Shown here: one piece after another, positions 18,001 through 21,000 of the stretch
How the letters are laid out: each line of letters starts with the position of its first letter
Numbering within the stretch: the stretch's first letter is position 1
Assembly: GCF_988242995.1 (NCBI RefSeq)
Contig: NZ_OZ547043.1
Reading direction: 5' to 3' (one strand)
DNA: 64,000 bases
Program-made: the position numbers

Positions 18001-21000
18001 TGGTTAAACGCCGAAACTGTACAGACGCAAACCTATGAATTATGCGATGGCGTCGCTGGCGGCTATGACTGGCAACGCGTACGACAGCTTGCCGCCGAAG
18101 CCCGTTGTGGTTCTGTGCGGATGGTTGGCATTCCTCTGCCGCTACTCACCTGCCTTGCGGATATCAGTACTGCGTTGAGTCGCCTGGCAGGTAAAGAACC
18201 TATGCTGACCCGCTCGAAAATTCGTGAATTAACCCACGCCGACTGGTCGGCAAATAATAACCGTATTTCTGAAGATATTAATTGGTTTCCCGGGATTAGC
18301 CTGGAACACGCATTACGCAACGGGCTATTTTGATTGTCTTGTTTAAAGGTGTGTTAACGTTTCTATGGTAAATCGTGAAATAGTAATGGATTACATCCTT
18401 TCCTGTTTACAGGATTTGGTCGAAAACGGTGTGGAAATTAAGCCCGACAGCGATCTCGTCAACGATCTTGGCCTGGAGTCGATCAAAGTGATGGATCTCT
18501 TAATGATGCTGGAAGACAGATTCGATATTTCCATTCCTATTAATATTCTGCTGGATGTCAAAACCCCTGCGCAATTAATGGAAACACTACTTCCATGGCT
18601 GGAGAATAAATAATGGGGCTATACGATAAATATGCGCGCCTTGCTGGCGAGCGACTGCAATTTAGTGACAACGGGTTAACACCGTTTGGCACCTGTATTG
18701 ATGAAGTGTATTCCGCCACCGAAGGTCGGATCGGCAATAAAAAAGTGATTCTGGCCGGGACCAATAATTATCTCGGTTTAACCTTTAATCATGATGCCAT
18801 CGCCGAAGGTCAGGCAGCATTAGCGGCCCAAGGCACCGGCACCACCGGTTCTCGTATGGCAAACGGCAGTTATGCGCCGCATCTGGCGTTAGAGAAAGAG
18901 ATCGCCGAGTTTTTTAATCGCCCTACCGCTATCGTTTTTTCAACCGGTTATACCGCTAATTTAGGCGTCATCAGCGCACTTGCCGACCATAACGCCGTGG
19001 TGTTACTGGATGCCGACAGCCACGCCAGTATTTATGACGCCTGTTCTCTCGGTGGCGCGGAAATTATTCGTTTCCGCCATAACGATGCTAAAGATCTGGA
19101 ACGGCGCATGGTTCGCCTCGGTGAACGGGCAAAAGAGGCGATTATCATCGTTGAAGGCATCTACAGTATGCTCGGTGACGTTGCGCCGCTGGCGGAAATT
19201 GTTGATATCAAACGTCGTCTCGGTGGTTATTTGATTGTCGATGAAGCGCATTCGTTTGGCGTGTTAGGCGCAACGGGGCGCGGACTGGCTGAAGCCGTTG
19301 GCGTTGAAGATGATGTGGATATTATCGTTGGTACTTTCAGTAAAAGTCTGGCCTCGATTGGCGGTTTTGCTGTCGGTTCGGAAGCGATGGAAGTGCTGCG
19401 CTACGGCAGCCGCCCGTATATTTTTACCGCCTCTCCTTCTCCGTCCTGCATTGCGACCGTGCGCTCGTCGTTAAGAACCATTGCTACACAACCAGAGTTG
19501 CGGCAAAAGCTGATGGATAATGCCAACCATCTGTATGACGGTCTGCAAAAACTGGGTTATGAGTTAAGTTCACATATTAGCCCGGTAGTGCCAGTAATAA
19601 TCGGTTCGAAAGAGGAAGGTTTACGCATCTGGCGCGAGCTTATTTCGCTGGGCGTTTATGTGAATCTTATCCTGCCACCTGCCGCGCCTGCAGGCATCAC
19701 GCTGCTGCGCTGTAGCGTAAACGCTGCCCACAGTCGTGAGCAAATCGATGCCATCATTCAGGCATTTGCTACTCTGAAGCAGTAATGTGAGCCCGCTGTG
19801 GTGCTGCGCCACGGCGGGTTTAATGTTGACTGTCATACCAATACACCAGGCTCAACGCCACCAGCACAAACACTATCGGTAAACCGAGCGCGGTAACAGG
19901 TGCGCTCAACGCAAATAACAATCCCAGATTGACCATGATTTGATAGCTGATCCAGGTGAGTAAGCCAACGATGACGCCTACAGCGAGACGGCTACCCATC
20001 CCTGGCGAGCGCGGGGCGCTAAAGGTAAACGGCACAGCCAGCAAAATCATCGCCAGAGTTAAGATGGGTTGCCCCAGTTTTTCCCACAGTGCAAGGCGGT
20101 AATCGCTGCTGGGTTGCCCGGTTTCCTGCAAATAATGGATGTAATGATTAAGCTGACGGACAGAAAAAGTATTCCCCGGCATCGATAACTCTTCAAGATC
20201 CATACTGGTGAAGGCCGATTGCCAGGCAAGATTATCTGATGTTTCCAGCGTTTCTTTGCCATTCAACCATTTTTTATGATTCACACCATGCAGGATCCAC
20301 GTTTTGTCGTCTTCAATGGAGGCACTGCGTGCAAAAATGTAGGATTCGAGCGAGAGATCGTCGCGATAATGAAATATCTCCACGCCCACAGGCTGGCCCT
20401 GCTCGTTCAGCGATTTCACCGTCACAAATTCATTACCGCGCCTGGCCCAAAGCATATTGCCGGTAATGTCATCGTCCTCCCCCAACGCGGTGGCAGTCGA
20501 TTTGATTTGCAGCGCCTGTTGCTGCAATGGCGACGCCACCCACTCATCTATCGCGCCTAACGAAACAGTCCACAATATCCCGGCAACCAGCGCCACCAGT
20601 GCAATACGGAAGATAGAAAACCCAGTGCTGCGAATGGCGGTAAGCTCACTGTTTTTCGATAACTGCCCCAGGCCAACAATCCCTCCCAATAATGCGATAA
20701 ACGGCGAAAGTTCGACCAGTGTACGCGGTAAGGTCATCAGCACCACCAGCACCGCCTGAGTCCAGCGATAACCACCCGGGCTGACATCATCCAGTTCGTT
20801 AATCAGGTTGAAGGTGGTAAAAAGCGGCAGCAATAGCCCTGCGGCGGCGGCAAAACCGAGAAAGAGATGACGGATTAAATAGCGACTGAAAACATTCATC
20901 GGGAAAATTTCTGCAGCAATGAGAAGTCGCGTGCGACCAGCATCAGCAGGCCCATTAGCATGAGTCCGGGTACTAACCACAAACCAGGAATGAGGGGAAT

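What the first reader, a model, noticed from the sequence alone, without database searches (positions are those of the whole stretch)
18613..19785. Serine-palmitoyltransferase-like alpha-oxoamine synthase as core enzyme
The PLP-lysine motif GTFSKS and DEAHSFG are visible. The gene is fused by a 1-nt overlap to a dedicated ACP and sits in an operon with a fatty-acyl adenylating enzyme. That context argues for a long-chain acyl-ACP plus amino-acid condensation rather than biotin (BioF) or threonine (Kbl) metabolism, whose genes lie elsewhere in E. coli.
Basis: partly seen in the sequence, partly recalled or inferred. Interest (0 to 1): 0.7.

Follow-up and report, generated by a model that had tools for sequence, protein, structure and literature searches.

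The report
Known E. coli serine palmitoyltransferase gene
The only local peculiarity is an IS4 element that breaks the neighbouring ceramide-synthase-like gene yghO in this strain.

Summary
Window 18613-19785 (+) is an intact 390-aa PLP-dependent alpha-oxoamine synthase. The GTFSKS (aa 240-245, Lys244) and DEAHSFG (aa 210-216) motifs are present, and a TAATG overlap links it to an 82-aa acyl carrier protein gene. It closes a four-gene operon: fatty acyl-AMP ligase (aasR), SDR reductase (epi/cerR), acpR, spt.

It passes NCBI's curated serine-palmitoyltransferase model (600 bits, cut-off 500) and fails the BioF, Kbl, ALAS and CqsA models. It is 47% identical to the crystallised Sphingomonas SPT, with all catalytic residues kept.

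It is 388/390 identical to E. coli BL21(DE3) ECD_02854, and the ACP is 82/82 identical to ECD_02853. Padilla-Gómez et al. [quoted passage not shown]

RefSeq already names the gene spt. The operon is in 4194 of 5426 complete E. coli genomes, and K-12 lost it through an IS5-associated deletion.

Two questions remain open: whether E. coli expresses the locus natively, and what the end product is. In this strain IS4 interrupts yghO, which should block N-acylation to ceramide.

The parts
18613..19785 (+). spt: serine palmitoyltransferase, 390 aa. PLP lysine K244; H137, D210, H213 and R366 are the equivalents of SpSPT H159, D231, H234 and R390.
   Evidence: 388/390 identical to BL21(DE3) ECD_02854. 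dN/dS 0.04.
18365..18613 (+). acpR: dedicated acyl carrier protein, 82 aa. The phosphopantetheine serine is probably S39 in LGLES. One-base TAATG overlap with spt.
   Evidence: 82/82 identical to BL21 ECD_02853, which was shown to carry beta-alanine/4'-PP (PMC9386255).
17419..18333 (+). epi/cerR: NAD-dependent epimerase/dehydratase-family SDR, the presumed 3-keto reductase of the pathway. ATGA overlap with aasR.
   Evidence: Homologue of CC_1164 according to PMC9386255.
15698..17422 (+). aasR: fatty acyl-AMP ligase-type acyl-AcpR synthetase. PGAP start at 15698; the BL21 annotation starts at the equivalent of 15731.
   Evidence: NF006624, 870 bits vs cut-off 600.. AasREc acylates AcpREc (PMC9386255).
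15327..15697 (.). AT-rich divergent intergenic region between yghO and aasR (about 41% GC over 15000-15999). Presumed promoter region, left intact by the IS4 insertion.
   Evidence: The promoter scan was not above chance. The promoter role is an inference.
15110..15326 (-). yghO 5' fragment (about codons 1-72), including the right copy of the 13-bp target duplication at 15110-15122.
   Evidence: yghO is the aca/bCerS homologue ECD_02850 according to PMC9386255.
13684..15109 (+). IS4, 1426 bp, with an intact 448-aa transposase ORF at 13750-15096. Flanked by the 13-bp direct repeat CAACTATCTGCCC. It interrupts yghO.
   Evidence: (NF033592, E = 2.7e-89). The junction was not found in any of 5426 complete E. 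coli genomes.
12745..13683 (-). yghO 3' fragment (remainder of the 380-aa protein), including the left copy of the target duplication at 13671-13683.
19783..19828 (.). Strong GC-rich hairpin in the 34-nt gap between convergent spt and lptG2. Likely a bidirectional terminator.
   Evidence: -28.3 kcal/mol, z = -5.3, 0 of 200 shuffles fold as well. Terminator function is inferred.
19820..20899 (-). lptG2: LptG paralogue in the sphingolipid locus.
   Evidence: TIGR04408, 307 bits.. The Caulobacter homologues are required for sphingolipid transport (bioRxiv 10.64898/2026.04.12.717747).
20896..21966 (-). lptF2: LptF paralogue.
   Evidence: TIGR04407, 318 bits..
21997..25546 (-). Four co-oriented genes of unknown role: YtfJ-family protein (21997-22560), 274-aa hypothetical (22569-23393), YghQ MOP-flippase-like protein (23393-24742), YghR P-loop protein (24788-25546).
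   Evidence: Syntenic with spt in Hafnia and Citrobacter amalonaticus. Belonging to the pathway is inferred from synteny only.
25578..27157 (.). yghS (25578-26291, minus strand) and yghT (26465-27157, plus strand): dTMP-kinase-like P-loop proteins at the end of the conserved module.

Best explanation
The ORF encodes the serine palmitoyltransferase (Spt, EC 2.3.1.50) of the alpha/beta/gamma-proteobacterial ('Rhodobacteria') type. The mechanism has three steps. AasR, a fatty acyl-AMP ligase, activates a free long-chain fatty acid and loads it onto the 4'-phosphopantetheine arm of the dedicated carrier AcpR. Spt, with PLP bound to Lys244, forms the L-serine external aldimine. It then performs a decarboxylative Claisen condensation with acyl-AcpR to give 3-oxo-sphinganine (3-ketodihydrosphingosine). 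In the intact locus YghO (the bCerS/aca homologue) and the SDR Epi/CerR would convert this to dihydroceramide, and LptF2/LptG2 would help move the lipid to the outer membrane. Shown: gene identity, motifs, operon layout, and near-identity to the biochemically tested BL21 proteins. Taken from papers: activity, thioester preference, and the Lpt2 role in Caulobacter. Inferred: that this strain expresses the operon, and that the IS4 insertion in yghO stops its pathway at the long-chain-base stage.
For: The SPT equivalog NF047599 scores 600 bits against a cut-off of 500, and every other alpha-oxoamine synthase model is below its cut-off. The best PDB relatives are all SPTs (2jg2 E = 8e-112, 47% identity), while E. 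coli BioF 1dj9 and Kbl 1fc4 reach only about 1e-50 to 1e-54. H137, D210, H213, K244 and R366 are invariant across 13 diverse homologues. Spt is 388/390 and AcpR 82/82 identical to the BL21(DE3) proteins that were assayed in PMC9386255. RefSeq/PGAP names the gene spt, and the operon is present in 4194 of 5426 complete E. coli genomes. The same 13-gene module occurs in Hafnia and Citrobacter amalonaticus. dN/dS is 0.04 within E. coli and against C. amalonaticus, so the gene is kept under purifying selection. Operon signals: ATGA and TAATG overlaps and a strong hairpin right after spt.
Against: For the E. coli enzyme, the product in the paper was identified by TLC co-migration and [14C]serine incorporation. 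Mass spectrometry was reported for the Caulobacter combination. BL21(DE3) with empty vectors carries the chromosomal locus yet showed no such lipid, so native expression is unproven. I found no report of native E. coli sphingolipids in the searchable library. In this window yghO is split by IS4, so ceramide is probably not made here even if spt is expressed. The two substitutions relative to BL21 (A64S, E335D) are untested, though neither is at an invariant column.
Confidence: 0.93

Rival explanations
1. The enzyme is competent, but in this strain, and perhaps in E. coli generally under ordinary conditions, the locus is silent or broken. No ceramide is made, and at most free 3-oxo-sphinganine or sphinganine would accumulate because yghO is interrupted by IS4.
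For: A 1426-bp IS4 with a 13-bp target duplication lies about 204 nt into yghO. BL21(DE3) with empty vectors, which carries the chromosomal locus, showed no 3-oxo-sphinganine-like lipid. K-12 lost the whole region through an IS5-associated deletion without obvious cost. About 23% of complete genomes lack the operon.
Against: The spt, acpR, epi and aasR ORFs are all intact here. dN/dS of 0.04 indicates that selection still maintains spt across E. coli and other Enterobacterales. The yghO::IS4 junction is absent from 5426 complete genomes, so it looks like a recent strain-specific event and not a population-wide decay. The divergent promoter region is untouched.
Confidence: 0.35
2. The enzyme is a long-chain alpha-oxoamine synthase whose physiological amino-acid substrate is not serine. 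Candidates are cysteate (sulfonolipid/capnine type), glycine or alanine (1-deoxy bases), or a CqsA-like signal synthase.
For: It belongs to the same fold and chemistry. A cysteate-C-fatty acyltransferase (28eh, E = 6.7e-60) and CqsA (E about 1e-35) are detectable relatives. The amino-acid panel was not explored for the E. coli enzyme in the paper I read.
Against: L-[14C]serine was incorporated by SPTEc extracts. The SPT equivalog model is passed, and the CqsA-type model is far below its cut-off (221 vs 428). The best structural relatives are bona fide SPTs by 50 orders of magnitude in E-value. The locus also contains the bCerS, CerR and LptF2G2 homologues typical of sphingolipid loci.
Confidence: 0.04
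3. It is a redundant BioF or Kbl paralogue acting on pimeloyl-ACP or acetyl-CoA.
For: The family is shared, and older database names for identical or near-identical proteins read '8-amino-7-oxononanoate synthase'.
Against: bioF TIGR00858 scores 334 vs cut-off 426, and Kbl NF005394 scores 298 vs cut-off 460. The context is a dedicated ACP plus a fatty acyl-AMP ligase. Published assays used palmitoyl thioesters.
Confidence: 0.01

Closest known systems
E. coli BL21(DE3) SPT ECD_02854 with AcpR ECD_02853 and AasR ECD_02851 (Padilla-Gómez et al. 2022, PMC9386255)
   Same: This is the same gene at the same chromosomal site, between glcC-yghO and lptG2. Spt is 388/390 identical, AcpR 82/82, Epi 292/304, and AasR 552 of 562 aligned residues. 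The operon order and overlaps are the same.
   Different: There are two conservative substitutions (A64S, E335D). About 2% of nucleotides differ. In this window yghO is interrupted by IS4, whereas it is intact in BL21.
Caulobacter crescentus ceramide locus: Spt CC_1162/CCNA_01220, AcpR CC_1163, Epi/CerR CC_1164, AasR CC_1165, aca/bCerS CC_1154, LptF2/LptG2 CCNA_01214/01213
   Same: Both share the tripartite AasR-AcpR-Spt route to 3-oxo-sphinganine, a bCerS-type N-acyltransferase, an SDR reductase, and LptF/LptG paralogues in the locus. According to PMC9386255, all five ceramide genes are clustered only in Caulobacter and E. coli among the Rhodobacteria it compared.
   Different: I saw none of the Caulobacter head-group genes (cpgABC, ceramide glycosyltransferases) in the E. 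coli module. CpgB is an LCB5/DAG-kinase-type protein, whereas the E. coli module carries YtfJ-like, a 274-aa orphan, YghQ (MOP flippase-like) and YghR/S/T (dTMP-kinase-like P-loops). lptC2 is reported as restricted to Caulobacter. AasR/AcpR pairs are only partly interchangeable between the two organisms.
Sphingomonas paucimobilis SPT (PDB 2jg2, 2w8j and others)
   Same: They are 47% identical over 382 aligned residues, with the same fold-type-I PLP enzyme architecture. H159, D231, H234, K265 and R390 are all conserved, along with the GTFSKS and DADSHASIYD blocks.
   Different: SpSPT R378, N100 and Y73 correspond to L354, T78 and N51 in E. coli. In a 13-sequence alignment the E. coli residues follow the family majority and SpSPT is the exception. 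These differences are therefore not evidence for a different substrate.
E. coli BioF (8-amino-7-oxononanoate synthase, PDB 1dj9) and Kbl (2-amino-3-ketobutyrate CoA ligase, PDB 1fc4)
   Same: They share the alpha-oxoamine synthase family, the PLP-lysine chemistry and a similar size.
   Different: The similarity is only at paralogue level (E about 1e-50 to 1e-54, against 1e-112 for SPT). Both models are below their curated cut-offs. Their substrates and genomic contexts differ: by established knowledge, bioF lies in bioBFCD and kbl in kbl-tdh.

Membership tests
Serine palmitoyltransferase (bacterial, Rhodobacteria/AcpR-dependent type) | Fold-type-I PLP enzyme of the alpha-oxoamine synthase family (Pfam Aminotran_1_2 spanning the protein) | tested here: met
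   PF00155, E = 1.6e-51, residues 44-385.
Serine palmitoyltransferase (bacterial, Rhodobacteria/AcpR-dependent type) | Catalytic residues: Schiff-base Lys in GTFSKS, the His stacking on PLP, the Asp/His of the DEAHS block, and the conserved Arg (SpSPT K265, H159, D231, H234, R390) | tested here: met
   K244, H137, D210, H213 and R366, all invariant in a 13-sequence alignment.
Serine palmitoyltransferase (bacterial, Rhodobacteria/AcpR-dependent type) | Scores above the curated equivalog cut-off for SPT and below the cut-offs of sister families (BioF, Kbl, ALAS, CqsA) | tested here: met
   NF047599 scores 600.1 vs 500. bioF 334 vs 426, Kbl 298 vs 460, ALAS 220 vs 339, CqsA-type 221 vs 428. The alpha-proteobacterial (430 vs 670) and CFB (340 vs 640) SPT sub-models are not passed, so it belongs to the 'BetaP' sub-model.
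Serine palmitoyltransferase (bacterial, Rhodobacteria/AcpR-dependent type) | spt immediately preceded by a dedicated acpR, with an aasR (acyl-AcpR synthetase) gene nearby | tested here: met
   acpR at 18365-18613 overlaps spt by one base, and aasR lies at 15698-17422 in the same operon. The arrangement is conserved in Hafnia and Citrobacter.
Serine palmitoyltransferase (bacterial, Rhodobacteria/AcpR-dependent type) | Catalyses L-serine + long-chain acyl thioester -> 3-oxo-sphinganine + CO2 | not testable with these tools
   Published for the 99.5%-identical BL21(DE3) protein by TLC and [14C]serine assays (PMC9386255). Not measured for this allele.
Complete bacterial ceramide-synthesis locus (Spt + bCerS + CerR) | Intact bCerS/aca homologue (yghO) | tested here: not met
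   yghO is split by a 1426-bp IS4 at window 13684-15109, about codon 68-72 of 380. It is intact in BL21, the O158:H23 strain, Hafnia and Citrobacter.
Complete bacterial ceramide-synthesis locus (Spt + bCerS + CerR) | SDR-type reductase (Epi/CerR) present and intact | tested here: met
   304-aa ORF at 17419-18333, 304/304 identical to the O158:H23 strain and 292/304 to BL21. The family assignment comes only from generic SDR/epimerase matches and from the paper's homology statement.
BioF / Kbl (short-chain alpha-oxoamine synthases) | Score above the curated equivalog cut-off | tested here: not met
   values as listed above.

The most novel reading that the evidence does not exclude
Wild E. coli and relatives such as Hafnia, Citrobacter amalonaticus and Pseudocitrobacter may use the conserved 13-gene yghO-yghT module to make and export a surface sphingolipid that has never been detected. 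Its head group would be built by the uncharacterised YtfJ-like, 274-aa orphan, YghQ and YghR/S/T proteins, not by Caulobacter-type CpgABC. The locus would be silent in laboratory culture. In this particular strain the IS4 hit in yghO would turn the pathway into a producer of free long-chain base, or abolish it.
Probability: 0.3. Interest if true: 0.55.

Novelty: already known. Interest (0 to 1): 0.12.

Why it matters
As a discovery it does not matter. The gene is annotated as spt in RefSeq, its product and partner proteins were characterised in 2022, and the whole E. coli locus is drawn as a sphingolipid locus in a 2026 preprint.

The residual value is practical. Most natural E. coli carry a selectively maintained sphingolipid pathway that K-12 lacks. 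In the papers I could search, nobody has shown when it is expressed or what lipid it makes. Sphingolipids from gut bacteria influence host immunity, so a native E. coli sphingolipid would be of real interest. That question is already posed in the literature and is not opened by this finding.

Tried and rejected
1. I asked whether Leu354 in place of SpSPT Arg378 (which I recall binds the serine carboxylate), together with T78 for N100 and N51 for Y73, signals a different substrate. Rejected: in 13 diverse homologues Arg, Asn and Tyr occur only in the S. paucimobilis sequence, and E. coli follows the majority.

2. I asked whether YghR/S/T are homologues of the Caulobacter ceramide kinase CpgB. 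Rejected: CpgB has an LCB5/DAG-kinase domain, whereas YghR/S/T give only weak dTMP-kinase-like P-loop matches.

3. I asked whether the 794-aa Salinisphaera homologue P0126 is a YghO-Spt fusion. Rejected: there is no similarity to YghO. Its N-terminus is an SDR (GATGFIG motif), followed by a low-complexity linker and then Spt. It is either a real epi-spt fusion or a MAG frameshift artefact.

4. I asked whether the yghO::IS4 junction is widespread. The apparent extension of hits 23 bases into the flank came from an unrelated IS4 copy between ycaL and aroA. No genome covers the junction.

5. Promoter and terminator consensus scans over 15100-20000 gave counts no higher than shuffled sequence. Rfam found nothing in 12000-28000.

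6. Pfam, NCBIfam and PDB sequence searches on YghO, the 274-aa orphan and YghR gave nothing significant. The bCerS assignment of YghO therefore rests on PMC9386255 and not on my own test.

7. GC content of the locus is 48-54%, like the E. coli average, so there is no sign of recent horizontal acquisition.

8. My dN/dS for aasR against BL21 was invalid because a one-codon length difference put the sequences out of register. I discarded it.

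Full report
**Observation**

The ORF list and raw sequence show an ATG-started, 390-codon ORF at 18613-19785 on the plus strand. GTFSKS lies at residues 240-245 (nt 19330-19347) and DEAHSFG at residues 210-216 (nt 19240-19260). Directly upstream is an 82-codon ORF, 18365-18613, that matches acyl carrier protein models weakly but consistently and contains an LGLES motif.

The ACP stop codon TAA occupies 18611-18613 and the spt ATG occupies 18613-18615. The two ORFs are in different frames, so the arrangement suggests translational coupling and is not a fusion.

Further upstream on the same strand are two more genes:
- a fatty acyl-AMP ligase gene at 15698-17422 (NF006624, 870 bits against a cut-off of 600);
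- an SDR/epimerase-family gene at 17419-18333, whose ATG overlaps the ligase stop as ATGA.

A strong hairpin at 19783-19828 (-28.3 kcal/mol, z = -5.3) fills the 34-nt gap between spt and the convergent downstream gene. The layout is that of a four-gene operon: aasR-epi-acpR-spt.

**What the protein is**

It passes NCBI's curated equivalog model for serine palmitoyltransferase (NF047599, 600 bits, cut-off 500). It fails every sister family: bioF 334/426, Kbl 298/460, ALAS 220/339 and the CqsA-type synthase 221/428. Pfam sees the expected Aminotran_1_2 domain.

Against solved structures, the eight best hits are Sphingomonas SPTs (E about 1e-111 to 1e-112). E. coli's own BioF (1dj9) and Kbl (1fc4) reach only 1e-50 to 1e-54.

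Mapping the HMMER alignment onto S. paucimobilis numbering gives 47% identity. The conserved residues are H159→H137, D231→D210, H234→H213, K265→K244 and R390→R366.

Three residues differ from the Sphingomonas enzyme: R378→L354, N100→T78 and Y73→N51. I aligned 13 homologues spanning 39-84% identity, drawn from the 50%-cluster representative library. The E. coli residues are the majority state and the S. paucimobilis residues are the outliers. These differences therefore say nothing about substrate choice.

**Is it already known?**

A megablast of the operon against 5426 complete E. coli genomes found it in 4194 of them, nearly always chromosomal and single-copy. PGAP annotates the four genes as 'fatty acyl-AMP ligase', 'NAD-dependent epimerase/dehydratase family protein', 'acyl carrier protein' and 'spt: serine palmitoyltransferase'.

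I fetched the BL21(DE3) region and compared proteins:
- Spt is 388/390 identical to ECD_02854 (A64S, E335D).
- AcpR is 82/82 identical to ECD_02853.
- Epi is 292/304 identical.
- AasR differs at 10 of 562 aligned positions.

Padilla-Gómez et al. 2022 (PMC9386255) worked with exactly these BL21 proteins:
- AcpREc incorporates beta-alanine, so it carries 4'-phosphopantetheine.
- Co-expression of AasREc, AcpREc and SPTEc yields a lipid migrating like 3-oxo-sphinganine.
- SPTEc extracts incorporate L-[14C]serine and strongly prefer palmitoyl-AcpR over palmitoyl-CoA or palmitoyl-AcpP.

The same paper names yghO (ECD_02850) as the homologue of the Caulobacter N-acyltransferase (aca/bCerS) and ECD_02852 as the reductase homologue. 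It notes that the five dihydroceramide genes are clustered only in Caulobacter and E. coli BL21 among the genomes it compared.

**Surroundings**

The locus lies between glcC and pitB. Convergent with spt are:
- paralogues of lptG (19820-20899) and lptF (20896-21966), both above the curated LptG/LptF cut-offs;
- a YtfJ-family gene;
- a 274-aa orphan with no Pfam or PDB match;
- yghQ (MOP-flippase-like);
- yghR, yghS and yghT (weak dTMP-kinase-like P-loop matches).

A 2026 preprint shows that the Caulobacter LptF2/LptG2 paralogues encoded in its sphingolipid locus are needed for sphingolipid transport and bind LptB. Its Figure 2B draws the E. coli UTI89 locus alongside (bioRxiv 10.64898/2026.04.12.717747). 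The transport half of the locus has thus also been recognised.

K-12 MG1655 has an IS5 in place of everything from the 5' end of yghO to the 5' part of yghQ. This explains why the pathway is absent from the textbook strain.

The complete module, yghO through yghT plus pitB, is syntenic in Hafnia and Citrobacter amalonaticus. There the Spt proteins are 84-86% identical and the left-hand chromosomal neighbours differ. In those genera the acpR frame runs 14 nt into spt instead of 1 nt, so the tight coupling is conserved but the exact overlap is not.

GC content is like the rest of the chromosome. spt has dN/dS of about 0.04 both within E. coli and against C. amalonaticus, so the gene is under purifying selection.

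**What is particular to this window**

Relative to BL21 the window is colinear at about 97.4-98.1% identity, with one large insertion. This is a 1426-bp IS4 at 13684-15109 with an intact 448-aa transposase ORF (NF033592, E = 2.7e-89). It is flanked by a 13-bp direct repeat, CAACTATCTGCCC, and lies about 204 nt into yghO.

None of the 5426 complete genomes spans that junction. The hits that appeared to extend into the flank belong to another IS4 copy between ycaL and aroA. The divergent intergenic region and the four operon genes are untouched.

If YghO is the ceramide synthase, as the literature states, this strain could at most make the long-chain base. That is an inference. I could not independently confirm YghO's family, because it has no Pfam, NCBIfam or PDB sequence match.

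**What remains open**

BL21(DE3) carrying only empty vectors, and therefore the chromosomal locus, showed no 3-oxo-sphinganine-like lipid in the published TLCs. I found no paper in the searchable library reporting a native E. coli sphingolipid. A 2023 review still limits detection to Bacteroidota and some alpha-proteobacteria.

The head-group genes of Caulobacter have no counterpart that I could see. CpgB is an LCB5/DAG-kinase-type enzyme. The roles of the YtfJ-like protein, the orphan, YghQ and YghR/S/T are unknown.

**Verdict**

The feature is an already named, already assayed gene. Interest is low. The only new local fact is the strain-specific IS4 disruption of yghO.

Noticed in passing
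window 13684-15109 (target duplications at 13671-13683 and 15110-15122): A complete 1426-bp IS4 with a 13-bp target duplication interrupts yghO, the bCerS/aca homologue of the sphingolipid locus. The junction is absent from all 5426 complete E. coli genomes searched, so it is a strain-specific knockout of the presumed ceramide synthase.
   Followed up: yes
window 19820-27157: A conserved set of genes lies next to spt: lptG2, lptF2, a YtfJ-like gene, a 274-aa orphan, yghQ, yghR, yghS and yghT. It travels with spt in E. coli, Hafnia and Citrobacter amalonaticus. The orphan and YghR have no Pfam or PDB sequence match. Their role in head-group synthesis or export is unknown.
   Followed up: partly
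window 59869-59875: About 930 bp that carry the mqsR-mqsA toxin-antitoxin pair in BL21(DE3) (3035256-3036184, between ygiS and ygiV) are absent from this window.
   Followed up: no
window 42867-42868: A 233-bp stretch of the yghA-exbD intergenic region present in BL21(DE3) (3018020-3018254) is missing here. A smaller rearranged patch lies at 31928-31991, between yghU and hybG.
   Followed up: no
L006 4570-5226 and L007 4470-5225 (Hafnia): In Hafnia a 4'-phosphopantetheinyl transferase gene (PF01648 ACPS) sits next to yghO at the edge of the sphingolipid module. It may be a dedicated activator of AcpR. E. coli has glcC at that position instead.
   Followed up: no
P0126 (Salinisphaera sp., 794 aa) and P0047 (eukprot gene model, 443 aa): P0126 joins an SDR (epi-like) N-terminus through a low-complexity linker to an Spt domain that is 54% identical. 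It is either a true fusion or a MAG frameshift across acpR. P0047 is a spliced 'eukaryotic' gene model that joins E. coli AcpR to Spt at 98% identity, which most likely reflects bacterial contamination.
   Followed up: partly
L005 (K-12 MG1655 3130146-3131340): In K-12 an IS5 (IS5LO/insH9) replaces the segment from the yghO 5' end through aasR-epi-acpR-spt-lptG2-lptF2-ytfJ-like-orphan to the 5' part of yghQ. This explains the truncated yghO and yghQ annotations in the reference genome.
   Followed up: yes
window 19783-19828: A 21-bp-stem GC-rich hairpin (-28.3 kcal/mol, z = -5.3) lies exactly between the convergent stop codons of spt and lptG2. It is probably a bidirectional terminator. The simple terminator scan flagged only a 5-bp core of it.
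   Followed up: partly
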